This document shows, in pieces, positions 8,645-54,472 of a DNA stretch of 63,447 bases. The DNA comes from a virus (lineage: Duplodnaviria; Caudoviricetes). Numbering within the stretch: the stretch's first letter is position 1; every line of letters begins with the position of its first letter. The stretch covers positions 1 through 63,447 of the IMG/VR virus record IMGVR_UViG_3300048583_000179; one strand, written 5' to 3'. A program made the translations under genes and the position numbers. A model generated the notes under the pieces. It was not told the DNA's origin, did not search any database, and saw nothing but the letters and a program-made list of their open reading frames with translations.

Positions 8645-8685
8645 GGATCCTCCTATTAGATGGTGGCCCCCGTTGGCCACATGGT

Positions 8686-8714
8686 AAGCTAGCTCAATTT
8701 GAATCCCCGCGCAA
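8686..8714 (-). promoter_or_regulatory. sigma70-like early promoter TTGCGC-N17-TAGCTT
   Basis: Repeated promoter family, followed by GTGGCC-AACGG-GGGCCAC hairpin. Confidence 0.7.
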
Positions 8715-8936
8715 GCGCAGGTTATTCGGTTTGACGTGGGCCAAGTTCTCCGCCCCCTCCATCTTCACTGCGATGCGACTCGTCGTGTAGCCCATCACCA
8801 CTCCGGGTCGGTCGGGCCGCTTTCTTCCAGCCTTGCTCTGGCTGAAAATGACTTTAGCCCCGATGCGGAAGTGTCGCTTATCCAGCTCCGTGAGCCGCTG
8901 AATCTTATGCGTGGGCACCTGTCCTCCTGTATTCAA
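8694..8936 (-). CDS. Small SH3/KOW-like hypothetical protein
   Basis: FRIGAKVIF...GVVMGYT..RIAVKMEG...HVKPNNL beta-barrel pattern. Confidence 0.55.
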   Translation of the reverse strand: MNTGGQVPTHKIQRLTELDKRHFRIGAKVIFSQSKAGRKRPDRPGVVMGYTTSRIAVKMEGAENLAHVKPNNLRLRGDSN

Positions 8937-11502: not shown

Positions 11503-11556
11503 TTGGCACCCCCTATTAGGACACTACCGTTTGATGGCCCCCGTTGGCCATGGTGT

Positions 11557-11585
11557 AAGGTAGCTCATCGACTAAGTCTGCGCAA
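11557..11585 (-). promoter_or_regulatory. sigma70-like early promoter TTGCGC-N17-TACCTT
   Basis: Repeated family; -35 box lies in one arm of the 11580-11626 inverted repeat. Confidence 0.7.
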
Positions 11586-11626
11586 GGGGTACGGAAAAGG
11601 TACTTCTCTTTCCGTACCCCTTGCGC
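11580..11626. repeat. 18-bp perfect inverted repeat
   Basis: GCGCAAGGGGTACGGAAA-N11-TTTCCGTACCCCTTGCGC. Confidence 0.85.
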
Positions 11627-11730
11627 TCATTAACGCCCTTTCTCGTACCGGGGGTGACTAAGATGTTGGCTCTTCTTAAAGACTTGCTTACGGCTCTTTA
11701 TCAAGTATCGGGTTTTCAGTGTCATCTACC

Positions 11731-11818
11731 TATTGGCTATTGCCCCTATATAGGGTTACTATAACCGATCAAAATGTTTTCTAAAAAATTCGGAATGTGC
11801 CAATAGGGGTAATAGGGT
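11731..11818. repeat. AT-rich duplicated element, copy 1 (candidate replication origin)
   Basis: CCTATATAGGGTTACTATAACCGATCAAAA (11745-11774) is identical to 38675-38704; flanked by TATTGG/CCAATA. Confidence 0.7.
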
Positions 11819-12051
11819 AGAGGGGTAACTGGGAGTACTGTAAAGGGTTACGATGCGTATTGGAGATAGGTACAGTGATAATGCTCTACCGATAATGGGG
11901 TAATAACACTGAAGGACCGCGAGCGGGATCAGGGTTCGTAGTGTTGTTATATCAGTGTCTAGAACGTATATTAGGTCGCAGTTATCGGGACGGCCCGGGC
12001 ATCGCCGCGAGGTGAAGACGACCTTGACCTTGCACACACGTAGAGGTAACA

Positions 12052-12468
12052 ATGCGTGAGCATGCCATTTTGGCACGGTATGCCAAGCAGGCAGCCGACC
12101 TGCCAATCCTGTTGCACCGGATAGAGAACCGAGTTCACAAGGGAACACCCGACTACCTCTGGACTTCTCAGGGGTTCACAGCGTTCCTTGAAATGAAGAG
12201 CTACGATACGGGTCACTGGGTGTCACCCGAGCAGGCGATCTTCATGAGAAAGTGGACTGAAGCAGGAGGGCATGCCGGAGTATTGGCAAGCGGGAGAAGT
12301 CTGGAGTGGGACTACTACCCTGCCTTGGCCGACCACAGTTGGGTAAAGAAGATCCAAGATCGCAAAATCGCTCCAGCCTTCAGCTTTCCGGTCTTCAACT
12401 ACTCGGCTCTTCTCCAGATTATCGCTCTTCACCGTGAGCTCGTTCCTACAATCTCTGGGTCTCCCTAA
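12052..12468 (+). CDS. VRR-NUC / PD-(D/E)XK nuclease (resolvase-like)
   Basis: RIENRVHKGTPD...AFLEMK...SPEQAIF..KW..AGG. Confidence 0.8.
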   Translation: MREHAILARYAKQAADLPILLHRIENRVHKGTPDYLWTSQGFTAFLEMKSYDTGHWVSPEQAIFMRKWTEAGGHAGVLASGRSLEWDYYPALADHSWVKKIQDRKIAPAFSFPVFNYSALLQIIALHRELVPTISGSP

Positions 12469-12580
12469 TCAGGTCTCCCCAATCAACTCCGAGAAGACGA
12501 CTCCAAGACGCGTAACCGCGTTCCAAATCTGGATTTCTCGTAGTACAGGTTGGGGAAGAATTGAACTCGCCTAGGGGAAT

Positions 12581-12604
12581 GAAACAGGGGGCCGAAGCCC
12601 CCTG
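12581..12604 (-). terminator. Intrinsic terminator after the 12625-13023 gene
   Basis: CAGGGGGC-TTCG-GCCCCCTG-TTTC on the minus strand. Confidence 0.75.
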
Positions 12605-12624
12605 CGTCATCCACCCCTTTGTCC

Positions 12625-13023
12625 TCAGGCCGGAGTGGCAGCCTCCACCGCCTTGGCCTTCGCGGCAGCCGCCGCCTCGCGCCGCTCCGCGAGGATGGCC
12701 GCGCAGCCGGGGCACCACGCCTCAGCCGCCTCGTGGCCCGGGATCGCCCCGCCCGGCGCGTAGGCCGCGTCCTTGGCCTCCTTCCGGCTGTTGAAGTGGG
12801 CGACAGTGCCGTGCGCCTCGCAGATGTTGACGAACGTGGTGCCCGGCGCGATGGGGCGGTAGCTGTTGATGCGAACGCCCGTGCTGCGGTTGACGCGCGA
12901 CCGGAACCTGTTGTGCGAGCCGCACGCCTCGGGGTCGGTGAGGACCCGCTCGGCGGGCGCGACGGTGGTCACCGGGGTCTCGGTGGTGGTTTCCGTCGCG
13001 GTGGTCTTCTGCTTCTTCGACAT
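12625..13023 (-). CDS. Zn-finger-like early protein, normally encoded paralog of 16294-16761
   Basis: Thr-rich N-tail, VNICEAHG...YAPGG...AWCPGCA; highly GC3-biased codons; own promoter and terminator. Confidence 0.8.
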   Translation of the reverse strand: MSKKQKTTATETTTETPVTTVAPAERVLTDPEACGSHNRFRSRVNRSTGVRINSYRPIAPGTTFVNICEAHGTVAHFNSRKEAKDAAYAPGGAIPGHEAAEAWCPGCAAILAERREAAAAAKAKAVEAATPA

Positions 13024-13078
13024 AGTGTACCCCCCCTGTTAGTGTGAGCCGCCCAGCGTCGTGCTGTAGCGTACACCA

Positions 13079-13107
13079 ATAATACTTCAACGCCACGTCG
13101 GACGCAA
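13079..13107 (-). promoter_or_regulatory. sigma70-like promoter TTGCGT-N17-TATTAT
   Basis: Near consensus; upstream of CTAACAGGGGGGGTAC leader. Confidence 0.75.
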
Positions 13108-13386
13108 TACCCGTTGAGGTCTTGTTACAGTTTGCCCCGGACTAAGTCTGCCCTCCACTTCTAGCAATCTCCGCGGGTGCGTGTTCTTATAATCGCTGCG
13201 GGCTCGCGCTCATATTGTCGCCTCTTCCTCGTGCTCTAGACTTCTCCTTCTAGATTTCTCACCCGGTGGCTCCGGCCAGCCCGAGTGCGGGGAGAACGAG
13301 ATAACGACAAGGCCCGACCGAGACCGAGAAAGGGCTAACAGGCTACGCCGAAGTGAGAAAGTGCTACGCTGATGAATACTGGGGGC

Positions 13387-13415
13387 TGGCGTGACGAATG
13401 GGTGGGGGCTATATT
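13387..13415 (+). promoter_or_regulatory. sigma70-like promoter TGGCGT-N17-TATATT
   Basis: Shares CTGGCGTGACGA...GCTATATT with the 43313-43341 promoter; followed by GTGCGC hairpin and leader. Confidence 0.7.
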
Positions 13416-13458
13416 GGGGGGTGCGCACCAACGCGCACCACACTAACAGGGGGTAGGT

Positions 13459-13824
13459 ATGTACGTGCCAACCTTGCAAAACAACGCCGTGCCGTGGCAG
13501 GTGCAGGTAGTGGCCATGGTGCCCAACAGCACCCCCGTTGCCCTACTGGGCAACTTGCAGCATGCCATGTATGCTGCCGCTGCCCCGTGGCACGGTAGCA
13601 TGGTGGCCAGTGTGGGCAACGCCACGGGGGAAAATGGGTGGTTGGAAGTTGCGTTTACCGCCCACATGCACCCCGCCTACATGCTGGTGGACAATGCGCA
13701 AGCGGTTACCCCCCGGCTAGTGCAACAGGGCGGGGAAATACTGGCGCAGTGGGTGGGGCACCTACATGCCATGCTGCCGGGGGCCGTGCTGTACCAAGCC
13801 AAGTTGGAAAACCCCAACTACTAG
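13459..13824 (+). CDS. Hypothetical immediate-early protein encoded in TC-free DNA
   Basis: CTAACAGGGGGT leader; zero TC and only 5 GA, all starting Asp/Glu codons. Confidence 0.8.
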   Translation: MYVPTLQNNAVPWQVQVVAMVPNSTPVALLGNLQHAMYAAAAPWHGSMVASVGNATGENGWLEVAFTAHMHPAYMLVDNAQAVTPRLVQQGGEILAQWVGHLHAMLPGAVLYQAKLENPNY

Positions 13825-13871
13825 GGGTAACCGGGTGGGGGGTAACCCCCACCCACCATACAGGGGGTACA

Positions 13872-14171
13872 ATGGAAGAAGCAACAGGGTGGTTGGTCTC
13901 AGTTACCATGCCGTACAGCCTAACTGAAGACAGGCACGTACAGGCTCTTCAAACCCTCACCAATTTCACTTCGCACATGCCAGACTTCTCCGAGGGAGAC
14001 GGGGGCACAAGCAGCGAAGAAGGGCGGGGCATGGTGTACGTGGAAGAAGTGTACAGCACCAGTCTCGGCCACGCCATGCAGTACCTCCAGCTCGCCCTGT
14101 CTCTGGGGGCGTACTGCGGGGATGTGGTGCCAGCCCGTATCGACGAAGAAGGGATACCCGTGGAGATGTAG
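13872..14171 (+). CDS. Small acidic early protein
   Basis: ATG after CATACAGGGGGTAC; MEEATGW...; no Lys, many Asp/Glu. Confidence 0.75.
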   Translation: MEEATGWLVSVTMPYSLTEDRHVQALQTLTNFTSHMPDFSEGDGGTSSEEGRGMVYVEEVYSTSLGHAMQYLQLALSLGAYCGDVVPARIDEEGIPVEM

Positions 14172-14276
14172 CGGGGGCGGGGCGAGAGCTCTCGCCCCGC
14201 CCCTTAGTAGGTGGGTACGAGAAAGGGCGATTGTTCTCTGGAGATGACCACTCCCCATCAAGACTTCTCAAGCCAC

Positions 14277-14305
14277 TTGCGTGGCGACTCAACGGGTGCT
14301 AGCTT
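14277..14305 (+). promoter_or_regulatory. sigma70-like promoter TTGCGT-N17-TAGCTT
   Basis: Repeated family; spacer contains GACTCAA. Confidence 0.7.
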
Positions 14306-14349
14306 ACAGTGTAGGGTAGTACAGCGATTCCAACCTAATAGGGGGTACC

Positions 14350-14628
14350 ATGCGCGAACCGGCCTACCTGTACCTGCAACTCTCGCCCAAGCCGGGCACC
14401 ACCGCAGAAGAAATTATTGCCTACTGGCAGCGGTTGGATTCCCTCGCGGTTACCATGTGCGGCGAAGGTGCGCAGCAGCACATGGCCAATTGGACGAACC
14501 ACGGCTACCTTGATTTTTGGGTGGCCCACCCCAACAGCGATACTTTGGGCCGGTTGAAAGCGGCATGGTTGGCCGTGCCCGCACCCGGCGAAACCGGGGC
14601 AGTAGTAGACGAAGGCGAAGGCGACTAA
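14350..14628 (+). CDS. Small acidic early protein
   Basis: CTAATAGGGGGTAC leader; own promoter. Confidence 0.75.
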   Translation: MREPAYLYLQLSPKPGTTAEEIIAYWQRLDSLAVTMCGEGAQQHMANWTNHGYLDFWVAHPNSDTLGRLKAAWLAVPAPGETGAVVDEGEGD

Positions 14629-14724
14629 TAGCAAACACCGGGGCGGCAGTTCTCGCCCCGGTAGGTGCCCACAGGGCGAGAAGTCTAGACCCCATCAGGC
14701 CCGATCGCGACTTCTCCGAGCCCC

Positions 14725-14753
14725 TTGTGTGCGGACTCAACGCGAGGTATTAT
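14725..14753 (+). promoter_or_regulatory. sigma70-like promoter TTGTGT-N17-TATTAT
   Basis: Repeated family; spacer contains GACTCAA. Confidence 0.7.
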
Positions 14754-14797
14754 ACAGGGTAGGCAATAGGCAACATCCTCACCTAACAGGGGGCACC

Positions 14798-15076
14798 ATG
14801 CCAGTCATCACTTTACCACAGGCCAAGTACACAACGTTCTACTTGGACAACGCAAGAGATTACACGTTGGACGAGTTTGCCCGTGTGGCCGCAGAGCACG
14901 AGATCCTGTGCGGCTACCTGCCGTGGGCCACGCCCGACGAGGACTTGGGCACCGTGGGAGAGTACTGGTTCCTCACGTTTACCAAGGCCCAACAGGCAGT
15001 GGTGGACGGGATGAACGGGTACCCCAGTGTCCTCGACTGGGTGACGGACGAGGGACCGTTTGACCTAAACATGTAG
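14798..15076 (+). CDS. Small acidic, aromatic-rich early protein
   Basis: Start re-called after CTAACAGGGGGC; MPVITLPQAKY... Confidence 0.75.
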   Translation: MPVITLPQAKYTTFYLDNARDYTLDEFARVAAEHEILCGYLPWATPDEDLGTVGEYWFLTFTKAQQAVVDGMNGYPSVLDWVTDEGPFDLNM

Positions 15077-15229
15077 GACTCGTGGGCGGGTGGGGGCTCG
15101 TGCCCTCGCCTCGCCGGTGTGTTCTTCAGAGAAAGGGTGACTGTGAGCTCCTGCCCTGAGCTCCTGTTCAAGACTTCTCGCCCCTGTGCTCCGGCGAAGA
15201 GCGCCGACTCACGCCGGCGCTGCTGACTC

Positions 15230-15394
15230 TTACTGCCGCCTCTTCGCCCGCTCTACCTGCCGACGGAGGTTGCGGAGGGTGGGGCTGACGTGATCCGACG
15301 GAGGCATGCGCAGTGCCCAGAAGACCATGCCGTAGTACAGGATGACTGCGAGCACGATGCCGAGCACCACGCGAATGTTGATGTCGTTGACCAT
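15230..15394 (-). CDS. Small single-TM protein (54 aa, not in ORF track)
   Basis: MVNDINIRVVLGIVLAVILYYGMVFWALR...; CTAACAGGAG leader. Confidence 0.65.
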   Translation of the reverse strand: MVNDINIRVVLGIVLAVILYYGMVFWALRMPPSDHVSPTLRNLRRQVERAKRRQ

Positions 15395-15447
15395 GGGGTG
15401 GATCTCCTGTTAGTGGTGGGGGGCTTGCGCCCCCCGGTTGATGGCGA

Positions 15448-15762
15448 CTACTGCGGGCCGTAGAAGCCGCGCAGCACGAGGTCCTGGTACCGCAGGGTGT
15501 ACGGCAGCTGAACGAGCTGGGTAATGGGACCGGTGATCCCCTTGTACGGGCGCACCCACAGGGTCTCACCGAGCAGTTCGTTGCCCCGGTATTCCTGCAG
15601 CGACACCCACAGCCCGTGACCGGGGTAGGTTTCGTCGCCGCTGAACCCCGCCACGCCCACCCAGTTCGCGCCCGCATGCACGGTGGTAATGCCCGTCATC
15701 TTGAACGCGGTGCGGGCTTCCTCGTCGGCTGCCAACAGCCTTGCCACCTTCACCTGTGCCAT
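15448..15762 (-). CDS. Hypothetical early protein
   Basis: CTAACAGGGGGTAC leader; own promoter. Confidence 0.75.
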   Translation of the reverse strand: MAQVKVARLLAADEEARTAFKMTGITTVHAGANWVGVAGFSGDETYPGHGLWVSLQEYRGNELLGETLWVRPYKGITGPITQLVQLPYTLRYQDLVLRGFYGPQ

Positions 15763-15803
15763 ACCGTACCCCCTGTTAGAGCGGCCCTTATTGGCCGCAC
15801 CTA

Positions 15804-15832
15804 AGTATACCTCGCATTGAGTCGTCGCGCCA
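15804..15832 (-). promoter_or_regulatory. sigma70-like promoter TGGCGC-N17-TATACT
   Basis: Repeated family; spacer contains GACTCAA; GCGGCC hairpin follows. Confidence 0.7.
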
Positions 15833-16098
15833 GTAGGCAGTTATCCTCCTGCAATCGCCCCTCCACGAAGCTCAACATCTCGGGTCAGGCGGTGACGACA
15901 GCCGGATGCGTGTCCTGCAATCTCTGCTCGGCCGAGCTCAAATCTAGATGTCTCGCTCCGGCGACATCGGGATCGGTCTCGGTCACACTATCTCGCCCGG
16001 TGGCGCTACAATCGCTGGACTCCATCGTTCAATTCCTCGTCATCTAACTCTCGCGTTCTCCCCTGTGGCGCGGGCGCAACACCCTGCTGTTGGGCGCA

Positions 16099-16185
16099 CG
16101 CCACATGTGGCGTGCCCGCTACGGTGCCAGGGCCACATGTGGCGCGGGTGCAACAAGCGGGTGTTGGGCGCACGCCACATGTGGC
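16099..16185. repeat. Three copies of the palindrome GCCACATGTGGC
   Basis: 16100-16111, 16132-16143, 16174-16185; copies 1 and 3 lie in a 24-bp direct repeat. Confidence 0.9.
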
Positions 16186-16206
16186 ACGCACGCACACCAC
16201 GGGGCA

Positions 16207-16278
16207 TAGCAAGGCCCGTGCCCCCTTGCGGGCACGGGCCTTGCTACCTGCCGCCCCCCGCCCCTTGCGGCGGGGGGC
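16207..16278 (-). terminator. Two tandem GC-rich hairpins (GCAAGG loops) downstream of 16294-16761
   Basis: 17-bp stem at 16207-16246 and 10-bp stem at 16253-16278; no U-tract. Confidence 0.55.
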
Positions 16279-16293
16279 TTTGCTACCGGGCTG

Positions 16294-16761
16294 CTAGGCC
16301 AGTGGTACGGCCCCGTGGGCTAGGGGGTTGGTGGCCCCTGCCGTGGCGGGGTTGGTGGCCACCACATGCGCTGCGCACCCCGCACACCATGCGGCGGGCG
16401 CGCCCGGTGCCTTGCCACTGGGGCCGCCCGGCACATACACCCCCTGCTTGGCGGTGCCCCGCGTAAGGTACCCCACGGCGTACCCGTGGGTGCCGCACAC
16501 GTTTACCCACAGGGGGCTGCCACCAAACGGGCGCAACATGTAAATGGTGGCGCCCGTTTGCTGGCACTTGCGCACCGGGCGGGCAGTGGCGGGCATGCCC
16601 TTGCCCGTGGCCAGTGCGGCGGCAACCGTGGCCAACTGGGTAGCCGTGGGGGTGCTTGTGGTGGCCGTGGGGGCGGTTGCCGCCACTGGGGCCGGGGTTG
16701 CCACTGGGGTGGCCGTGGGGGCGGCAGGGGCCGCCGTGGGGGTGCTGCGCTGCTTGGCCAT
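16294..16761 (-). CDS. Asp/Glu-free Zn-finger-like immediate-early protein
   Basis: 155 aa with no D or E; VNVCGTHG...YVPGG...AWCAGCA; own promoter and CTAATAGGTAGGT leader. Confidence 0.82.
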   Translation of the reverse strand: MAKQRSTPTAAPAAPTATPVATPAPVAATAPTATTSTPTATQLATVAAALATGKGMPATARPVRKCQQTGATIYMLRPFGGSPLWVNVCGTHGYAVGYLTRGTAKQGVYVPGGPSGKAPGAPAAWCAGCAAHVVATNPATAGATNPLAHGAVPLA

Positions 16762-16803
16762 GTGTACCTACCTATTAGGGCGGGCGGCATTGCCCGCACC
16801 CCC

Positions 16804-16831
16804 AAGTTAACCCATTTGCAACACTACGCAA
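16804..16831 (-). promoter_or_regulatory. sigma70-like promoter TTGCGT-N16-TAACTT
   Basis: Repeated family; lies inside the TC/GA-free island. Confidence 0.6.
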
Positions 16832-17031
16832 GGGGTGCGGCGGCACCCCCCAGTTACCCCACCCCCCACCCCCAAAAACGCGGCCCGCCCGCCCGCTGCC
16901 AGTCAGACCCAGCCCATGCGCCGATTTGAAAAATCCAACCCCAAAGCCCGCATGACGATGTTCATTGGTCTATAAAGATAAACGGGAGCCCCAGAATCAG
17001 GGCTCCCCGATTTTCTACGAGAGTTTAGGTA

Positions 17032-43274: not shown

Positions 43275-43312
43275 GGGTACCCCCTATGAAAGTGGCGTGT
43301 GGCCTACCCTGC

Positions 43313-43341
43313 AATATAGCAGGGTGAGGCTCGTCACGCCA
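43313..43341 (-). promoter_or_regulatory. sigma70-like promoter TGGCGT-N17-TATATT
   Basis: Matches 13387-13415; upstream of the polymerase operon. Confidence 0.65.
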
Positions 43342-43502
43342 GTGTTAGGCGGTCGTAGAGGCTAGGGTAGCGATCTACGATTTCCATCAACCGTTGGTGC
43401 AAATTCCGGTTGATCCTACCTGTGATCTGCTGTCCACCCGGCGTGCTGCTCCACTCAAACAAGTCTTCTGCACTATGCGCGATGAGGCTACCGATTGCGA
43501 CG

Positions 43503-43901
43503 CTATTGGGTTTTATGAGCCCCAGTGGGGTCGTCATGCGGATCTCCCTCGTAGAGTGGGCTGACTTCTTCAAGAGGGAACGGATCTTGGATCGCGAGGA
43601 TGCCTTGCGCATATGCTTCTGCCTCAATCAAGATAAGGTAGCGTCGCAGGTCGCGAATGCTTTCAATGGCTGACTCCCCACCTTCGTCAACCCGTGCAAT
43701 AGCCTTGAACACGTCGTACCCGCATGCCTTGGCCTGTTCCTCAAGCCTGTCGGCCTTACGAATACTGACCATGAAGGCACCCGGCCCACCCCGCTTTTTC
43801 CAACTTGCACCATAGGCGATATCTTTGGCAAGGACGGCTTCCGCATCAGCCTCTGCCACCATGCGGATGAAGTCGCGGTAGCTTGTGTCGTTGTTGTCCA
43901 C
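43503..43901 (-). CDS. Nucleotide-modification-associated MazG-like protein (Nmad1/DUF1599-like)
   Basis: KDIAYGASWKKRG...RKADRL...ESIRDLRRYLILIE; adjacent to the synthase. Confidence 0.7.
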   Translation of the reverse strand: MDNNDTSYRDFIRMVAEADAEAVLAKDIAYGASWKKRGGPGAFMVSIRKADRLEEQAKACGYDVFKAIARVDEGGESAIESIRDLRRYLILIEAEAYAQGILAIQDPFPLEEVSPLYEGDPHDDPTGAHKTQ

Positions 43902-44905
43902 TAGACCTCCTTCCAGGTACGCCGCTCAAGCCATTCCACGCACGCCTTGCGCCAGTCCTCGGCGCGGCACTCCTCAGCGGCAATGATGGCAAGTCCCTTG
44001 TTGCCTTGCTTGTAGAACTCCCAACTGTCAAACAGCGGGGTCACCACATACTGAAAGTACGGGGTTTGATAGTCCTCAGTGGGGTTGATGCCCTGTGCCT
44101 CGTTGGTAAATTCGCGCAGGTCGCGATCCCACTGGGCCTGAGTAACGTCGCCTGTGAATAGGGGGTAGGGGCGCACCAAGCCATTCTCATACGGGTCAAC
44201 ACGGAAAGACCCATGCTGAACAACGTTGTCCAGCTCATGCTTTTCCCAGACGTCCGTGTAGGCGTGGAAGTTGCCGCTCACCTGCTCGTACCACCCCACC
44301 TCGGCCTGAACGCACCCCGCCACATACTCTTGGATAACGCTGAAGTGAACTGCATTGGCCCCGAACGTGCCCCAAATCATATCGTTGCTGCGGTTGAACA
44401 CCAACATGTTCAGGCGGTTGGCGGGGTCAACCTCTAGCTTGATGCCCACATTGCAGGGGATGTCATTGCTGTTGGCCCCTACATCCTTTGGAAAGTAGAT
44501 GGGCACGTACACCCGCCGACTGTACCTGTCCTTCTGTAGCATGGTGACGGCTTCAGCCAACATGTCGCCGCCAGTGTCACGACGCATGCGGAACCCGTAG
44601 GCACCGTAGAAGTACTCACCGTCGTCACTGTACTTGGCGATCTGGCTATTGAACTGGGCAAGCCAACGAACGTCCTTGCGCCCGGCCAAGATCCACAGGC
44701 TTTCAAACAGGTGGAAGTACGGGTTGGCATCACGGTCCTCACCGAACAGCACCCGCTCCATGGGCCGACGGTAGGTTGTCACCACGGGCTCGTTCGCCAC
44801 ATAGGCCGACCCGTTACGGGTCTTTTGAATGTAGCCGTAGTAGTGAAGCAACCGTGCTCCGAGCACGTATGCCTCGTTTACATTCCGTGCATTAATGGTG
44901 TGCAT
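43901..44905 (-). CDS. Thymidylate-synthase-fold enzyme, probable dUMP hydroxymethylase
   Basis: RDANPYFHLFE, DIPCN, NRSNDMIWG..GANAVHFS, NFHAY, as in YuA/M6-type enzymes. Confidence 0.85.
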   Translation of the reverse strand: MHTINARNVNEAYVLGARLLHYYGYIQKTRNGSAYVANEPVVTTYRRPMERVLFGEDRDANPYFHLFESLWILAGRKDVRWLAQFNSQIAKYSDDGEYFYGAYGFRMRRDTGGDMLAEAVTMLQKDRYSRRVYVPIYFPKDVGANSNDIPCNVGIKLEVDPANRLNMLVFNRSNDMIWGTFGANAVHFSVIQEYVAGCVQAEVGWYEQVSGNFHAYTDVWEKHELDNVVQHGSFRVDPYENGLVRPYPLFTGDVTQAQWDRDLREFTNEAQGINPTEDYQTPYFQYVVTPLFDSWEFYKQGNKGLAIIAAEECRAEDWRKACVEWLERRTWKEV

Positions 44906-45025
44906 TCAGTCTCCTTAGGTAAAGAGGGCCACTAGGTAACCGCCCCTAGTATAAGCAGTAGAACACCCCAAAGACAAGCCCCAAGAAATGCCCAAAGCAT
45001 TGCGCACCTCGGGGTTACGTTGCAA

Positions 45026-45970
45026 CTAGGACGCGGCTTTCCGCCAGTCATACGTCACCTTGGGTCGCCCCTCGCCGGTTTTGGCTCGCAGGTACTTGTC
45101 AGTTTCGCACAAGCTGTGTTCAATGTCCCGCATTTCTAGAGAACCCGGAATGTGATTACCCAACGGGCTACCGACATCATTGGCCACGGCAAGCAGCCCC
45201 CGCATAAGGGCTAGGGCCGTTTGCTGTCGCAGAGGGGCATCAGCGATGCGCCCTGCCAGTCTATTTAGCCCCCGCAGTGCCCCCGGCCCGGCATTAGCCC
45301 ATGTCATGATGTCTGGAGCATTGCGAAGGTACCGTGTCCACCGAAGGTCGGTGACCACTTCGTAGGCAATGAACGGCCCGAAGCCATTGTAGTTGCGAAA
45401 CCACTTCCAGACCTGCTCCAATGAATATTGGGTGCCGCCATTCACAGCAGGGTCAAACAGTTCATCAAAGTCACGGCTTTCGCCCGCACGAGTGGCGTCC
45501 CAGATTGGCTTCAGCACATGGGTAAAGACGAAGTCTTCCTTTGGCATGCTCTTACCCCCGTTCGTAATGAGGTAGGCATTACCAAAGGTCTTCAGCCCGT
45601 TGGCCTGACGGCCCGTATAGATTGACTTCCATTGGTCGTAGTCAAACTCATCTGGCAGGGCGGTTTCGCGTAGTAGCTGACGCAGCGTACCGGGCCAATT
45701 CGTATTCCGCGCCATGGCGAGTAGAAACCACAGGTTGTGGTGCTTCGCGTAGGGCTTACGAATATTTTCTTCAATCCAGATGGTGACGGTGTCCAGCTCG
45801 CGAAACACGTTGCAGAATCTATAATCGCGGAGAATAGGGTCATCCGTCCACGGACCCGAATTCCCACTCTTCCTCCGTAGGTAGATCTTGTGCCGCTCGT
45901 TGATCCAGTAGAAGAAGGGCTCGGCGTCCAGCTCCCATTCTTCATCGTCTACTGGGATGGTTACTTTCAT
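45026..45970 (-). CDS. 5-hmdU DNA kinase helical-domain protein (aGPT-PPlase1 family)
   Basis: FFYWINERH..Y...GPWTDDPIL..YRFCNVFRELD, GFGPFIAYEVVTDL, GPGALRGL, DIEHSLCETDKY. Confidence 0.88.
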   Translation of the reverse strand: MKVTIPVDDEEWELDAEPFFYWINERHKIYLRRKSGNSGPWTDDPILRDYRFCNVFRELDTVTIWIEENIRKPYAKHHNLWFLLAMARNTNWPGTLRQLLRETALPDEFDYDQWKSIYTGRQANGLKTFGNAYLITNGGKSMPKEDFVFTHVLKPIWDATRAGESRDFDELFDPAVNGGTQYSLEQVWKWFRNYNGFGPFIAYEVVTDLRWTRYLRNAPDIMTWANAGPGALRGLNRLAGRIADAPLRQQTALALMRGLLAVANDVGSPLGNHIPGSLEMRDIEHSLCETDKYLRAKTGEGRPKVTYDWRKAAS

Positions 45971-46242
45971 ATACGAGGCTTTCTTTTAGGGGGCGTTCCA
46001 AGCTGTGTCAGCACTTCGGTCAGTACGGTCAACGCGTCTTTGTGCCGTACTCCATCAGCTACGAGGGCTTCAGTTTCCAGCCACTTTTGTTGAAACATGG
46101 CTGTCGGTATCTTAAAGAGTAGAGGCCGTACCGCATCCAAGCGAGCTTGATTGCACCGTAGACAGTTGTCCACGAGGCAATAGTCATCGCACAAGGCGTT
46201 ACGAAACGCCTCAAGGATTTGGGCCTCCAGGTCCTCTTTCAC
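45967..46242 (-). CDS. Hypothetical protein
   Basis: Coupled ORF inside the modification cluster. Confidence 0.55.
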   Translation of the reverse strand: MKEDLEAQILEAFRNALCDDYCLVDNCLRCNQARLDAVRPLLFKIPTAMFQQKWLETEALVADGVRHKDALTVLTEVLTQLGTPPKRKPRI

Positions 46243-46829
46243 AAACCGAGAAGCTCAATGGTGTGTTCCACTGCCATCTCGTGATTGATCCACACCCACG
46301 GCACCCCGTCGGCCTTGGCTTTCTGTTCGCACCGCAGGACGTCATTGTACATCTTTTCCGTGTTGTGCGTGTTGAACTGGCGGGACTTGCCCTTGTTCTC
46401 ACGGCGGTCGCCTACCCGCTGAATAGCCTTGTCAAGCGGCGTGTCCAGTGCCGCGAGTACCATGCGGCCCGGATACTCGTTCAGGGCCATATCAGCGTAC
46501 CGCTGATAAATGTGGCTAATGAGCAAGCCTTCGAACAGTACCTTGTGCCCCATGGCCCGCAGAGTGCGAACCCTGTCCTGAATGATGTCTTGTGCCCGGC
46601 CCTTCTCAGTAATGCCGTCACAGCCCCCGCAGTCGTTTTGGTAGTCGCCGACGATGGCGAGCTTGGGGGTGGCGGTCATGTACCAGTCGTACTTGATCTT
46701 CTTTTTACCTGCGCTGTTGCCGATGGCCGGAAACTCGGGCTTCATGTCAAACGCTTTGATAAGCTCCGTCATCAGCGTTGACTTGCCGCTGCCACTTGTA
46801 CCACGGATGTTGATGATGTCGTACGGCAC
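46239..46829 (-). CDS. P-loop kinase of thymidine-hypermodification clusters
   Basis: IINIRGTSGSGKST, GDY...CGGCDGI, VLFEGLLIS, LDTP...RV..RR. Confidence 0.85.
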   Translation of the reverse strand: MPYDIINIRGTSGSGKSTLMTELIKAFDMKPEFPAIGNSAGKKKIKYDWYMTATPKLAIVGDYQNDCGGCDGITEKGRAQDIIQDRVRTLRAMGHKVLFEGLLISHIYQRYADMALNEYPGRMVLAALDTPLDKAIQRVGDRRENKGKSRQFNTHNTEKMYNDVLRCEQKAKADGVPWVWINHEMAVEHTIELLGL

Positions 46830-46915
46830 GACCCCCTCCTCGTTGAATGAAGTACAGGGTGCCCCACTAGTAGAGCACCCTGCACCCGCTTCGCTCCGCC
46901 CTGATGAGGCGTGGC

Positions 46916-47704
46916 TTACTCGGCCGTGGCTTCGCCGGAGTCATCAGCACCGACAGCCGCCTTGGCCTTCTTAGCCTTCTTTGGCTTGGCAGCCTTCGGT
47001 TCCGCGCCCTCCTCGGCCTCAGCAGCCTTCGCCTTCGGCGGCTTCGGCGGCTCGGGGATCACGTGCTCCAGCGGGGCACGGAGGCCCGTGGGCAGCACGA
47101 GCTGATAGTACACCCGGCCATCCACGATGCTGGACTTGATGCCGTAGCCGTGCACCTTGTAGACGCGGCCCGACAGAGCGCGGCCCTTGCGCTCCAGCGC
47201 CGACTTCAGGTCATCCGCGAAGACACCCGCGTACAGCAGGTCGATCATGTGAGCGATCTTGCTGCCCTGCCGCGCCGCCTTGATCTGGTCCAGCGCCTTC
47301 GGCTCGATCTGCGTCAGGTGCGGGCCACGGGGCGTCGCCTCCGCGCCCTCCGCCTTCGGCTTACGGTTGCGCTTCTTCTTGCCGCCCTCTTCCACGGCCT
47401 CGGTCGCCTCGTTGCTCTCGCTTGCACTCATGTTGTACACCGCTCCGTATCCCGCCATAATGGCGTTTTCGTGTGAAGTGAACCGCTTGATCTTGATCGT
47501 GTGCGTGTGGTTGAACGCACCCAGCAGAATTGACATGGGCACTTCTTCCAAGTGCTCACGGTTACGCTGCCAGAGAATCCACCGACCCTCCTTGGGATTA
47601 TGGGTTGTGACGCGAGCGTCTGGCGGCACTCGCGTCACCCGGAACTTGCCTTCCGGGATGCGCTCAATGAGCAATGACGTGTGAGTTGCTGGATACTGAA
47701 CCAT
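46916..47704 (-). CDS. Putative DNA-binding protein with Lys/Ala-rich tail
   Basis: wHTH-like core (RQGSKIAHMIDLL...HGYGIKS); PKKAKKAK tail; CTAACAGAGGGGT leader. Confidence 0.6.
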   Translation of the reverse strand: MVQYPATHTSLLIERIPEGKFRVTRVPPDARVTTHNPKEGRWILWQRNREHLEEVPMSILLGAFNHTHTIKIKRFTSHENAIMAGYGAVYNMSASESNEATEAVEEGGKKKRNRKPKAEGAEATPRGPHLTQIEPKALDQIKAARQGSKIAHMIDLLYAGVFADDLKSALERKGRALSGRVYKVHGYGIKSSIVDGRVYYQLVLPTGLRAPLEHVIPEPPKPPKAKAAEAEEGAEPKAAKPKKAKKAKAAVGADDSGEATAE

Positions 47705-52370: not shown

Positions 52371-53219
52371 TTAGAATGCCTTGTCGGACACAACTTCGGC
52401 CTTGGCCTCGGCCTCGAACTCTTCCAGCTTAACCTTGGCCCGGCCCGCCGTGACCAGATCCCGGAACTCGCGGGCGGCGAGGTAGGTGTTGCCTCCGTTG
52501 GGAAGCGTGACCAGATCCGGGCCGTACTCGATCTTGACACCCATCCAGCTGCCCTGATCGTTGCTCTCGGGCACCGTGGTGAAGCGGTACGCCTTGTAGA
52601 ACGGTGCCGGGCGGAAGGGCACCCCGGTCGTGGGGTGCCCGATTTGCAAGGTGCTGATCAGGCTGTTGAAACGGCGGGACTTCTTGAGCTGCGACCCGTA
52701 CAGGTTGACCACGACTTGGCTGAACCCACCATTGTCGTTGACAATGAAGCCGTAGTACATACCGGACTGCACGAGGTGATTGCCGTTGGGCAACACGAGC
52801 TTGCCCTTGTCGTCGCGGGTGGCCGACTTCATAACGCTGTCGTCCATGCCGTGGTCCTTCACCAGACCGCCGCCCGTATCGCGCGGACGCCACTCGGTGT
52901 AGGACGGGCGGAACGCGCACGGCACGAAGAGGAAGCCCGTCTCCCCCTTCCAGTGCTCCATGGTCACGTTGTTGAAGAAGTCACCCTCTTCCAGCCCCTG
53001 AATGTACTCCGCTGCCCGCTTGTCAATCTGCGGGGACATCTTCTGGGCCACCTTCACAAACGGGATGGCCACATCCTCGGCCCTAAACCCAAGATCCTGC
53101 TGCGCATCCTCCATCAGCAGCGAGGGGTCCAGCGCCGCCGCGAGGGCGGTTGTCTGCGAGGCTCCCGGTGCCGCCACAGCCGTTCCGGGTGTCTTGGCGG
53201 AATCAGCCTTGCTTGCCAT
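52371..53219 (-). CDS. Putative ssDNA-binding protein
   Basis: DVAIPFVKVAQKMSPQ, EWRPR..GGG, SQLKKSRRFN, ESNDQGSW; acidic C-terminus ending in F. Confidence 0.7.
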   Translation of the reverse strand: MASKADSAKTPGTAVAAPGASQTTALAAALDPSLLMEDAQQDLGFRAEDVAIPFVKVAQKMSPQIDKRAAEYIQGLEEGDFFNNVTMEHWKGETGFLFVPCAFRPSYTEWRPRDTGGGLVKDHGMDDSVMKSATRDDKGKLVLPNGNHLVQSGMYYGFIVNDNGGFSQVVVNLYGSQLKKSRRFNSLISTLQIGHPTTGVPFRPAPFYKAYRFTTVPESNDQGSWMGVKIEYGPDLVTLPNGGNTYLAAREFRDLVTAGRAKVKLEEFEAEAKAEVVSDKAF

Positions 53220-53245
53220 GATTTGCTCCTTGAGCGTTTGGTTGG

Positions 53246-53809
53246 CTACTCTTCATCATCAGTGGTTGTTTGGCCCGCGACTACGGCCCGCTGCCCCACA
53301 AAGATGTGAAGCAGGTCGTGGGGCAGGTCAGCCCCGGTGGGAACGACCTTCTTAACCCATGCCTTCAGGGTAGAAGGATGAACACCTTCCTTGACGGTGG
53401 TGCGGCCTCCGCGATTTTCTGCGATGGCGGCGAGGCCCATGGCCTCCGACCGCATTTCACGGTCAAACGCTGCTTCCACCGTGTACTTGATGAGGTTACC
53501 GTGGCCGTTGTCCAACAGCCACTTCATTGCATCGGCATGGCCCGCCTTGGGAATGCGGGCGCTGACAATGTTTTCCAGGTTGACGGTGCTGCCGCCGATG
53601 GTTACCGTGTGAATGTTATCGGCAAGCATGGCCCCCGGCAGCGTCACTTCCTGTAGCTCGCGCAGCTTTGCCTTGGCTTCCTTCAGCTTGGCTTCCTGCT
53701 CGGCCACATACTGCACTCCCTTGATTACGCGCACCGCGAGATCCAGCGTCGCCTTACTGGCGTGGCCCTTGCTGTCTGCTGCGAAGTCAATCGTAGCACT
53801 GTTAGTCAT
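53246..53809 (-). CDS. Conserved replication-module protein
   Basis: WLLDNGHGNLIK...VHPSTLKAWVK motif. Confidence 0.7.
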   Translation of the reverse strand: MTNSATIDFAADSKGHASKATLDLAVRVIKGVQYVAEQEAKLKEAKAKLRELQEVTLPGAMLADNIHTVTIGGSTVNLENIVSARIPKAGHADAMKWLLDNGHGNLIKYTVEAAFDREMRSEAMGLAAIAENRGGRTTVKEGVHPSTLKAWVKKVVPTGADLPHDLLHIFVGQRAVVAGQTTTDDEE

Positions 53810-54198
53810 GATGCCGCCTGTTGAATTCCTGAGTAAATGGTCATCCAGACTGGGTTGTACTTCGCCCCGATGTCGGTACGCTGCCCGTTCGGTAGCTTAG
53901 GTCGATCGTACTTCAGCCACCGCACCCGCTGTACGCCTCGGCGTTCCAGCACGATACCTGCCATGAGGGCGGCAAGGCTGTCACCACCTGCCCACACGAG
54001 GTAGTCCACCTCGGGGTCAAACGCTTCCAACCGATCAATGACAATCTGCAAACACTTGTCCGGTCGCTGGCTTGGCGTATCGCCTGAGCGGATAACGGTT
54101 ACTACTTCACCGTATTCATCCAGCTTGTCCAGCTTGGGCGTCCGACCATTACGATCCACGGTCGGTTGTGCAATGAGGTACACCTTCGGCTTGCGCAT
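53806..54198 (-). CDS. Conserved hypothetical protein
   Basis: PKVY...EYGEV...FDPEVDYLVWAGGD...WLKYDR; start re-called. Confidence 0.65.
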   Translation of the reverse strand: MRKPKVYLIAQPTVDRNGRTPKLDKLDEYGEVVTVIRSGDTPSQRPDKCLQIVIDRLEAFDPEVDYLVWAGGDSLAALMAGIVLERRGVQRVRWLKYDRPKLPNGQRTDIGAKYNPVWMTIYSGIQQAAS

Positions 54199-54265
54199 AA
54201 CTTGTGACCCTGTTCCGGTTACTGCCGCATACAAGGTAGCACTCACCCCCCTTTCGCGTAAGGTG

Positions 54266-54472
54266 TTAGACATCACCGGGCCTCTTCTTGGCCAGTAGGT
54301 TGTCCTTGTACCACTCCAGCTTCCTTGACAACGGGTTCCATACTTGAACAGCGTCGGCAGTAAACCCGTTGATGTCTACCTGAATCCAGCCGTCCAGCCA
54401 CAACCTGTCGCCTAGCTTCATGCCGTTGCGGGCTACGAGCTCCGTCCTACCGCACTTCGGGCAATTGTTCAT
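54266..54472 (-). CDS. Hypothetical protein
   Basis: CPKC N-terminus; coupled start. Confidence 0.5.
   Translation of the reverse strand: MNNCPKCGRTELVARNGMKLGDRLWLDGWIQVDINGFTADAVQVWNPLSRKLEWYKDNLLAKKRPGDV

What the first reader, a model, noticed from the sequence alone, without database searches (positions are those of the whole stretch)
13110..13397. Strand-polarised TC/GA switch between two divergent promoters
Seen: 13201-13272 has about 13 TC on +; 13281-13397 has about 18 GA and no TC. Polarity flips near 13275, between the leftward (13079-13107) and rightward (13387-13415) promoters. Each promoter therefore has a TC-dense template strand upstream of it, the same geometry as 15833-16060. 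Inference: oriented arrays of modified T act as directional insulators or protein-loading sites.
Basis: partly seen in the sequence, partly recalled or inferred. Interest (0 to 1): 0.7.

Follow-up and report, generated by a model that had tools for sequence, protein, structure and literature searches.

The report
Strand-switched TC arrays beside TC-free islands
Between two back-to-back early promoters of an uncultured phage, the dinucleotide TC is packed onto one DNA strand and then onto the other, next to long stretches with no TC at all. This may mark which thymines the phage chemically modifies.

Summary
In detail: every count is exact. The TC-to-GA flip at 13272-13278 is the strongest such switch in the whole 63,447-bp phage genome at all four window sizes tested.

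General purine skew does not explain it, and neither does a hairpin. Coding sense strands and 36 other spacers show no comparable bias.

The spacer is a head-to-head pair of promoter-upstream modules. Both are related to a third module at 15836-16065, so the "same geometry" there is probably shared ancestry.

The main new result is that TC really is special in this genome. Of the 16 dinucleotides, only TC and GA have giant free runs. One is 843 nt with neither (16060-16902). Another is 626 nt without TC (13272-13896), with a 234-nt core lacking both. Each TC array abuts one of these islands. One island gene has lost every Asp and Glu codon, although eight relatives keep 9-14.

The phage carries thymidine-hypermodification genes, and published work places hypermodified T in TG/TC contexts. 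The best reading is therefore that the arrays are one-strand-dense modification patches bordering modification-free early units. This is inferred from sequence, not measured. No relatives could be fetched for comparison.

The parts
13079..13107 (-). Leftward early promoter-like site (TTGCGT, 17 nt, TATTAT) driving gene 12625-13023
   Evidence: Sequence. Hexamer positions. PWM family hit 13067-13110, 21-23 bits. Not found by the sigma-70 consensus scan.
13108..13275 (+). TC-dense half. The + strand has 21 TC among 54 T; the - strand has 4 TC among 21 T. This is the upstream module of the leftward promoter
   Evidence: Related to 15836-16065 (local alignment score 25, P 0.007; alignment A2).
13159..13202 (+). 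Two copies, 25 nt apart, of the element TTCTWRYAATCKCYGCGGG. The second holds a perfect TATAAT at 13188-13193
   Evidence: Six + strand copies of the core lie at 12447, 13163, 13188, 15850, 15916 and 16007.
13228..13260 (+). Two overlapping copies of CTAGAYTTCTC (core AGAYTTCTC at 13238 and 13252)
   Evidence: (family D2): 7 of the 8 exact genome matches lie in 12294-15179.
13257..13283 (.). Junction where the polarity flips. The last + strand TC is at 13271. The block TCTCACCCGGTGGC is shared with 15993-16006
13276..13396 (+). GA-dense half. The + strand has 0 TC among 13 T; the - strand has 17 TC among 35 T. This is the upstream module of the rightward promoter. It holds GGGGAGAACG (13289), GACCGAGACCGA (13316) and GAGAAAGKGCTA (13326, 13355)
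   Evidence: (D5, D7). The first two words recur inverted at 16054 and 15973. Alignment A3.
13387..13415 (+). Rightward early promoter-like site (TGGCGT, 17 nt, TATATT) driving gene 13459-13824
   Evidence: PWM hit 13384-13427, 39-41 bits. Closest to the sites at 15792-15835 and 43301-43344.
13032..13046 (-). Leader and ribosome-binding-site (RBS) word CACACTAACAGGGGG of the leftward gene, identical to the one at 13439-13453 (+)
   Evidence: I1: 15 nt, 100% complementary; 8 matches against 1.6 expected.
13272..13896 (.). TC-free run on the + strand (625 nt, 26 expected). Its core 13397-13629 lacks GA as well (16 expected). It covers the rightward promoter, the leader and gene 13459-13824
15804..15832 (-). 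Third promoter of the family (TGGCGC, 17 nt, TATACT), for gene 15448-15762
   Evidence: PWM hit 15792-15835, 40-45 bits.
15836..16059 (+). Paralogous TC-dense module (36 TC on +, 9 on -) abutting the second island
16060..16902 (.). Island with neither TC nor GA (843 nt; 45 and 39 expected). It covers the palindromic repeats, hairpins, gene 16294-16761 and that gene's promoter region
43901..46829 (-). Thymidine-hypermodification gene set: ThyA-like gene (43901-44905), aGPT-Pplase/amino-acid:DNA-transferase-like gene (45026-45970), P-loop 5-hmdU DNA kinase-like gene (46239-46829)
   Evidence: Pfam PF00303 62.7 bits. PF18723 165.7 bits. PF18748 24 bits, below its 27-bit cut-off. tblastn 46-48% identity to YuA-like phages and Sonora.

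Best explanation
SHOWN. The spacer 13108-13396 is a head-to-head pair of promoter-upstream modules of one early-promoter family. The left module belongs to the leftward promoter and the right module to the rightward promoter. Each resembles a different part of the module upstream of a third family promoter (15836-16065). In all three, nearly all TC dinucleotides lie on the strand that continues as that promoter's template strand. Placing two such modules back to back produces the sharpest pyrimidine-to-purine switch in the genome. This is part of a TC-specific patterning of the early region. The right module opens a 626-nt stretch with no TC on the + strand, whose 234-nt core lacks TC on both strands. 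The 15.9-kb module abuts an 843-nt stretch with no TC on either strand. INFERRED (about 0.35). TC is the sequence context in which this phage's 5-hmdU kinase / transferase pathway hypermodifies thymidine. The arrays would then be patches modified densely on one strand only. The islands, each holding a promoter and the first gene of an early unit, would stay unmodified. The likely effect is to control which proteins (host RNA polymerase, a regulator, or modification-dependent nucleases) can act on this DNA, and from which side. The descriptive part I hold at about 0.85.
For: The switch is the genome-wide maximum at all four window sizes. It is not a general property: coding sense strands have GA 6.6 and TC 5.25 per 100 nt, and 36 tandem spacers have sense GA 5.5 and TC 5.1 per 100 nt, against 12.5-15.7 in the three modules. 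Module kinship: local alignment scores against shuffles give P 0.007 (left module vs 15.9-kb module) and 0.02 (right module vs the same). Words shared by the modules occur nowhere else in the genome: GGGGAGAACG, GACCGAGACCGA and GTGGAGGG, 2 of 2 occurrences each. A 43-nt shared block lies 66 and 68 nt from the two -35 hexamers. TC is special: of 16 dinucleotides only TC and GA show giant free runs (844 and 888 nt, rough P about 1e-19; the next dinucleotide is 4e-5). Three of the five most TC-skewed 100-nt windows in the genome abut these islands. The constraint acts on DNA, not protein: it spans noncoding and coding sequence on both strands. Gene 16294-16761 has 0 TC+GA per 100 nt and no Asp or Glu. 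Its in-genome paralog and 7 database relatives have 9-14 Asp+Glu each, 8 of 8. Hypermodification genes are present. Published work: resistant restriction sites in M6, ViI and phiW-14 share TG or TC, which the authors attribute to the 5-hmdU DNA kinase (PMC6449724, passages). 5-hmdU is converted 'in a sequence-specific fashion' (PMC5889632, one passage). 27.9% of all T are followed by C; the abstract of PMC8989533 says up to half of thymidines are hypermodified in M6, ViI and others.
Against: There are no modification data for this uncultured phage. The kinase hit is below Pfam's cut-off (24 against 27 bits). The published context is TG or TC, yet TG is enriched in the islands (79 against 46 expected), so a TC-only specificity has to be assumed. 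YuA (whole genome), M6 (50 of 59.4 kb) and Sonora (50 of 63.8 kb) carry the same pathway and have no TC, GA, TG or CA deserts. Inside the spacer the TC/GA excess over base composition is marginal (P 0.03-0.04). Only 3 of the 7 good family promoters have such arrays, and at 14277 and 14725 the TC motif is on the non-template strand. Module alignments are only 52% and 62% identical over aligned pairs, so kinship rests on a few blocks. No relative could be fetched to test conservation.
Confidence: 0.4

Rival explanations
1. The arrays are ordinary cis-regulatory DNA: oriented binding sites for a phage or host regulator of the early promoters. The strand bias is a by-product of purine-rich motifs. 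Modification plays no part.
For: Short words are confined to the early region. AGAYTTCTC: 7 of 8 exact matches lie in 12294-15179. GAGAAAGKG: 6 of 6 lie in 11636-15137 against 1.0 expected. WRCAATCKCYG: 25 against 12.7 expected, with 6 + strand copies at 12447-16017. TCTAGA: 5 of 8 lie in 11958-15943. GAGAA/TTCTC: 19 of 103 lie in 12001-15000. AGACTTCTC sits at a fixed 7-8 nt before the -35 of two promoters. Cores are exact while flanks vary.
Against: AGAYTTCTC with one mismatch allowed is not enriched (22 against 16.4; 12 of 100 shuffles reach it). The 15.9-kb module has no GAGAA and only one TTCTC yet is the most TC-rich, so one motif cannot explain the bias. Copy spacings of 14, 25, 29, 66 and 91 nt show no helical phasing. 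No DNA-binding family was found in the ten flanking small proteins, and no HU-like gene. This reading does not explain the TC/GA-free islands.
Confidence: 0.22
2. The switch is an evolutionary relic. One strand-asymmetric promoter module was duplicated in inverted orientation, or its distal part inverted, and the polarity itself has no function.
For: The right half carries, in inverted orientation, two words of the distal 15.9-kb module in the same order (13289 and 13316 against 16054 and 15973). The rightward promoter is closest to the 15.8-kb one (A3; PWM). The adjacent genes 12625-13023 and 16294-16761 are paralogs (36% over 92 aa, E 2e-13), so this region has duplicated before.
Against: All three modules keep GA at 12.5-15.7 per 100 nt on the sense strand despite only 52-62% identity. 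Only 12 of 24 and 12 of 18 GA positions are shared with the 15.9-kb module, so part of the density was gained or kept independently. The two halves are not copies of each other (same-sense score 16, P 0.71). This reading does not explain why the arrays abut the TC/GA-free islands.
Confidence: 0.2
3. The spacer is a bidirectional replication origin. TC-containing priming sites sit on the template strand of each outward leading strand.
For: Gene orientation diverges here and converges at about 40.6 kb. The cumulative skews turn in this part of the genome. The phage has an archaeo-eukaryotic-type (AEP) primase and a family A polymerase. The strand geometry fits outward synthesis.
Against: Tandem Repeats Finder finds no iterons in the spacer. 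The spacer is not AT-rich (57.6% G+C). The one-sided array at 15.9 kb is not explained. A more origin-like AT-rich repeat region lies at 11503-12051. The primase's template preference is unknown.
Confidence: 0.07
4. The TC-rich strands are Rho-loading (rut) sites. They stop transcripts that cross from one promoter toward the other, and so insulate the divergent units.
For: Both halves are C>G and YC-rich on the strand an incoming transcript would copy. C-G is 14-15 and YC 19-21 per 78 nt, at the 97.5th-98th percentile.
Against: These are not extreme values; eight windows per strand score higher. The host, and so whether it has Rho, is unknown. Avoidance of TC on both strands in the islands points to a DNA-level cause, not an RNA-level one.
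Confidence: 0.05
5. The pattern is general purine loading of sense strands, or a hairpin, cruciform or triplex-forming tract.
For: Sense strands are slightly purine-rich (0.527). The TC and GA arms can pair in a predicted fold.
Against: Other spacers show no bias. Folds are no more stable than shuffles (z +1.30 and +2.05). The halves are not complementary beyond chance (best P 0.05). The longest homopyrimidine run is 11 nt, and the genome has 20 runs of 11 nt or more.
Confidence: 0.03

Closest known systems
Context-specific thymidine hypermodification in phages M6, ViI and phiW-14 (5-hmdU DNA kinase plus aGPT-Pplase/amino-acid:DNA-transferase pathway)
   Same: A ThyA-like gene, a transferase-like gene (46-48% identity to YuA-like phages and Sonora) and a kinase-like gene are present. 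Published restriction data place the modified T before G or C (PMC6449724).
   Different: Nothing is measured here. Only TC, not TG, is patterned. YuA, M6 (50 of 59.4 kb) and Sonora (50 of 63.8 kb) show no deserts. YuA's listed genes are all on one strand, so it has no divergent spacer to compare.
Word or restriction-site avoidance in phage genomes, including early-entering DNA of T7-like phages (recalled, from no call)
   Same: A short word is absent from a block that holds an early promoter and its first gene.
   Different: Here a whole dinucleotide is absent on both strands over 843 nt, at the cost of all Asp and Glu codons, and it is flanked by arrays enriched in the same word.
SPO1 TF1, a protein that prefers hydroxymethyluracil DNA and binds near early promoters (recalled, from no call)
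   Different: No HU/TF1-like gene is found in this genome (PF00216, 0 matches).
Operator or iteron arrays in divergent promoter regions and origins (lambda-type, recalled)
   Same: Short repeated words lie between divergent early promoters.
   Different: The repeats are weak (Tandem Repeats Finder finds none), unphased, and of several unrelated families.
Repeated promoter-like sites in YuA
   Same: YuA's record annotates 28-bp repeats as 'putative sigma70 promoter requiring phage-encoded cofactor'. This genome also has a promoter-like family with a conserved spacer.
   Different: There is no sequence similarity, and YuA has no arrays upstream of them.

Membership tests
Sigma-70-type divergent promoter pair | Two hexamers close to TTGACA and TATAAT, 16-18 nt apart | tested here: inconclusive
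   The consensus scan finds 0 sites in 12500-14000. Both sites do belong to a family of 7 good PWM hits of at least 21 bits, against 1 hit in a shuffled genome. Each stands upstream of a gene that carries the shared leader.
Thymidine hypermodification pathway (5-hmdU based) | dUMP hydroxymethylase (thymidylate synthase homolog) | tested here: inconclusive
   PF00303 at 62.7 bits. The hit cannot tell a hydroxymethylase from an ordinary thymidylate synthase.
Thymidine hypermodification pathway (5-hmdU based) | aGPT-Pplase / amino-acid:DNA transferase | tested here: met
   PF18723 at 165.7 bits. 46.5% identity to the Sonora gene annotated alpha-glutamyl/putrescinyl thymine pyrophosphorylase.
Thymidine hypermodification pathway (5-hmdU based) | 5-hmdU DNA kinase | tested here: inconclusive
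   PF18748 at 24 bits, below the 27-bit cut-off. P-loop kinase families match.
Thymidine hypermodification pathway (5-hmdU based) | Hypermodified T present in virion DNA, in a TC context | not testable with these tools
   This is an uncultured virus record, and no sequencing run was listed.
Inverted repeat / cruciform | Two arms complementary well beyond chance, giving a fold more stable than shuffles | tested here: not met
   Arms: best P 0.05. Fold z +1.30 and +2.05.
Iteron-type origin | Regular direct repeats beside an AT-rich unwinding element | tested here: not met
   No tandem array in 13000-13500 at score 30. The spacer is 57.6% G+C.
Rho-dependent terminator (rut) | A C-rich, G-poor, YC-rich stretch of about 80 nt on the transcript; a host with Rho | tested here: inconclusive
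   97.5th-98th percentile for C-G and YC. The host is unknown.
H-DNA-forming polypurine.polypyrimidine tract | A long uninterrupted mirror-repeat homopurine run | tested here: not met
   The longest run in the spacer is 11 nt, and the genome has 20 runs of 11 nt or more.

The most novel reading that the evidence does not exclude
The phage writes its own hypermodification map into its sequence. By choosing where T is followed by C, it keeps two immediate-early units (promoter plus first gene) completely unmodified. One of them was recoded so far that it has no Asp or Glu. It borders them with patches modified heavily on one strand only. Modified and unmodified DNA could then be told apart by polymerases, regulators or modification-dependent nucleases, and the arrays would act as strand-specific boundaries. 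This would be a sequence-encoded, epigenetic-like layout in a virus.
Probability: 0.3. Interest if true: 0.85.

Novelty: new variant of a known kind. Interest (0 to 1): 0.68.

Why it matters
Partial thymidine hypermodification is known in several phages. What decides which T is modified is barely known, and whether the pattern is used for anything beyond blocking nucleases is not known. This genome offers a sharp prediction that follows from sequence alone: T before C is modified, and two defined islands are bare. It also offers a natural experiment in a gene that gave up all acidic residues to stay free of the word. If the prediction holds, the kinase's specificity can be read from genomes, and unmodified windows and hemi-modified patches become testable regulatory elements. 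If it fails, an 843-nt dinucleotide desert still needs another explanation, such as a nuclease, a deaminase or a primase target.

Tried and rejected
**Readings tested and dropped**
- General skew: rejected.
- Hairpin or cruciform: rejected.
- Triplex tract: rejected.
- Tandem repeat array: Tandem Repeats Finder finds none in the spacer.
- Known RNA family: 2 chance-level microRNA hits only, both at 16196-16257.
- Coding remnant: the 46-codon ORF 15885-16025 (-) scores -0.036 per codon, below all but one of the 40 small accepted genes. GA shows no clear codon phase (9, 5, 5). The spacer has no ORF of 40 codons or more except an implausible antisense one at 13210-13479.
- Graveyard of decayed family promoters: no PWM hit of 0 bits or more inside either module.
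- Cyanobacterial HIP1 palindrome as a host clue: 3 against 1.75 expected.
- HU/TF1-like gene: none.

**Function of the flanking genes**
- No Pfam or PHROG family.
- The atlas gave no usable lead.

**Search for relatives**
- No DNA match among phage records.
- No close relative in IMG/VR by TerL, the flank gene, a promoter pattern or the small-protein family.
- TerL relatives in IMG/VR reach at most 45% and in metagenomes at most 48%. None of the 80 metagenome loci held carries the leader word, and 3 carry the -35 word once each.
- None of all 164 loci held encodes the small-protein family or the 13459-13824 protein.
- Both flank genes are orphans by word search.

**Other**
- Sequencing runs: none was listed.
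- Earlier findings were not open.
- Literature searches, with those terms and in that library, found no paper describing TC-free islands or strand-polarised TC arrays in phages.
- Supplementary tables of PMC6449724, which list the individual restriction sites, were not seen. They may bear on TC versus TG.

Full report
**What the window is.** The window is a whole virus record of 63,447 bases, classed as complete with direct terminal repeats. It encodes a large terminase, a major head protein, a tape measure protein, a family A DNA polymerase, helicases and an archaeo-eukaryotic-type (AEP) primase. My own codon-usage gene map is not a standard gene finder. It gives leftward genes from 13023 down through coordinate 1 and on to 40729, and rightward genes from 13459 to 40524, with a small leftward island at 15230-15762. 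The spacer 13024-13458 is therefore the main point of divergent transcription.

**Checking the observation.** All counts are exact. A statistic comparing TC minus GA to the left and right of each position peaks genome-wide at 13272-13278 for half-windows of 80, 100, 120 and 150 nt. The values are 25-35 against sd 4.5-6.2. The plain pyrimidine-to-purine switch also peaks genome-wide at 13274-13289.
- Coding sense strands carry GA 6.6 and TC 5.25 per 100 nt.
- Thirty-six tandem spacers, oriented by their genes, carry GA 5.5 and TC 5.1 per 100 nt.
- No fully noncoding window elsewhere reaches the observed values: 0 of 4388 windows and 0 of 3074 windows.

General skew is therefore excluded. Against a TC-specific reading of the spacer itself, the excess over local base composition is marginal there (P 0.03-0.04) and CT equals TC in the left half. 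Only in 15833-16060 is TC strongly enriched, at 36 against 18.8, with TT and CC depleted.

**The promoters.** The sigma-70 consensus scan finds nothing here. A weight matrix seeded from five look-alike sites gives nine hits in the genome, seven of them good, against one in a shuffled genome. The hits include 13067-13110 (-), 13384-13427 (+), 14274, 14722, 15792 (-), 8674 (-) and 43301 (-). Both divergent genes carry the same 15-nt leader, a word with 8 matches against 1.6 expected. That these sites are promoters remains an inference from position and recurrence.

**Anatomy of the spacer.** It is a mosaic of short words shared with the other early intergenic cassettes.
- AGAYTTCTC: 7 of 8 exact matches lie in 12294-15179. 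With one mismatch allowed the word is not enriched, at 22 against 16.4.
- GAGAAAGKG: 6 of 6 lie in 11636-15137, against 1.0 expected.
- WRCAATCKCYG: 25 against 12.7 expected, with six + strand copies between 12447 and 16017.
- TCTAGA: 5 of 8 sites lie in 11958-15943.

The left half aligns with the region upstream of the promoter at 15804-15832 (score 25, P 0.007). A 43-nt block lies 66 and 68 nt from the respective -35 hexamers. The right half shares with the distal part of that same region the words GGGGAGAACG and GACCGAGACCGA. They occur in the same order relative to the promoter, but inverted on the DNA. The two halves are not copies of each other (P 0.71 same-sense, 0.05 as inverted repeat).

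The alignments are weak overall, at 52% and 62% identity over aligned pairs. Only 12 of 24 and 12 of 18 GA positions coincide with those of the 15.9-kb module. I read this as two members of one module family placed head to head, with the "same geometry" at 15833-16060 being kinship.

The geometry is not universal. Only three of the family promoters have such upstream arrays. At 14277 and 14725 the TC motif lies on the non-template strand, 7-8 nt before the -35.

**What changed my reading: TC/GA-free islands.** I asked how long the TC-free stretch to the right really is, and this showed that TC is a special word in this genome.
- The longest TC-free runs are 844 nt (16059-16903), 626 nt (13271-13897) and 207 nt (14444-14651). 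The next is 150 nt.
- The longest GA-free runs are 888 nt (16018-16906) and 234 nt (13396-13630).
- In 16060-16902, 45 TC and 39 GA are expected and none occurs, while TG and CA are enriched.
- Among all 16 dinucleotides only TC and GA behave this way. The rough P is about 1e-19, from a homogeneous Poisson formula; the next dinucleotide reaches 4e-5.
- Thirty-nine unrelated loci of at least 15 kb, YuA, 50 kb of M6 and 50 kb of Sonora show nothing comparable, and never for TC or GA.

The islands span noncoding DNA and genes on both strands. Gene 16294-16761 has 0 TC+GA per 100 nt and gene 13459-13824 has 1.4, against a median of 12.3 and a next-lowest value of 6.8.

The product of 16294-16761 has no Asp or Glu. 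Its paralog at 12625-13023 (36% over 92 residues, E 2e-13) and seven database relatives have 9-14 each. The constraint is therefore on the DNA and is strong enough to reshape a protein.

Both TC arrays abut an island. The right half of the spacer is the first 125 nt of the + strand TC-free run, and the 15.9-kb array ends at 16059.

**Mechanism.** A word avoided on both strands points to something that reads double-stranded DNA. The phage carries a ThyA-like gene, an aGPT-Pplase/transferase-like gene (165.7 bits; 46-48% identity to YuA-like phages and Sonora) and a kinase-like gene whose kinase-family hit is below cut-off.

In passages I read, Flodman et al. report that restriction sites resistant in M6, ViI and phiW-14 DNA share TG or TC. 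They attribute this to the 5-hmdU DNA kinase (PMC6449724). Lee et al. state that 5-hmdU is converted in a sequence-specific fashion (PMC5889632).

My best reading is that T before C is the modified context here. On that reading the arrays are patches modified on one strand, the islands are unmodified early units, and the layout controls protein access. Everything after "T before C is the modified context" is inference.

Several results count against it. TG is not avoided. Three relatives with the same pathway lack deserts. No modification data exist for this phage.

**Rivals.** These are given in the Rival explanations section with odds:
- plain regulator-binding arrays;
- a functionless inverted duplication;
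- an origin with oriented priming sites;
- Rho-loading sites, which score only at the 97.5th-98th percentile;
- structure-forming DNA, which is rejected.

**Limits.** No relative close enough to compare intergenic DNA could be fetched, and no sequencing run was listed. The contigs that would settle it are named under next steps.

Noticed in passing
16060-16902 and 13272-13896 (core 13397-13629); also 14444-14651: Stretches with no TC, and in the first and the core no GA either: 843, 625, 233 and 207 nt. Only TC and GA among the 16 dinucleotides show such runs. None is seen in YuA, M6 (50 kb), Sonora (50 kb) or 39 unrelated loci.
   Followed up: yes
16294-16761 (-) and 12625-13023 (-): Paralogous small basic proteins with a conserved Cys/His pattern (C..H, C..C) and the motif R-x-R-K-N-R-Q-T-G in relatives. 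Seven relatives are in the 1.8-billion-protein library. The copy inside the island has no Asp or Glu, while the others have 9-14. No known family. P0126 sits on 59 metagenome contigs, the longest 64,307 nt.
   Followed up: partly
16064-16193: Two 56-nt repeats (86% alike) holding three copies of the palindrome GCCACATGTGGC, followed by two strong hairpins at 16207-16246 and about 16250-16285. This looks like an operator or terminator cluster inside the TC/GA-free island.
   Followed up: no
8674-8717, 13067-13110, 13384-13427, 14274-14317, 14722-14765, 15792-15835, 43301-43344: A promoter-like family with a conserved spacer (GACGA / GACTCAA) and conserved start region (ACAGGGTAGG). Downstream genes share the ribosome-site word CTAACAGGGGG.
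   Followed up: partly
11503-12051: A 549-nt noncoding, AT-rich region with AATAGGGGT repeats (11802-11828) and a perfect 18-bp hairpin (11580-11626). It is a more origin-like place than the spacer under study.
   Followed up: no
12052-12468 (+): A lone rightward ORF inside the leftward block with a nuclease-like PD...EMK pattern (seen by eye; no Pfam hit). It holds the genome's strongest opposite (GA-to-TC) switch near 12350, and a 14-nt tandem repeat follows at 12458-12485.
   Followed up: partly
46850-47220: A 370-nt run without AA (rough P 4e-5) in the unnamed gene next to the kinase-like gene.
   Followed up: no
56303-60622 (-): A 1439-residue ORF with no Pfam or PHROG family, in the replication and modification block.
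   Followed up: no
52371-54276 (-): Three consecutive genes match families named after cyanophage Pam3 gp34, gp33 and gp32. The large terminase is nearest to cyanophage and metagenome sequences (about 35% to named phages), while the polymerase and modification genes are nearest to YuA-like phages. The genome is a mosaic and the host is unknown.
   Followed up: no
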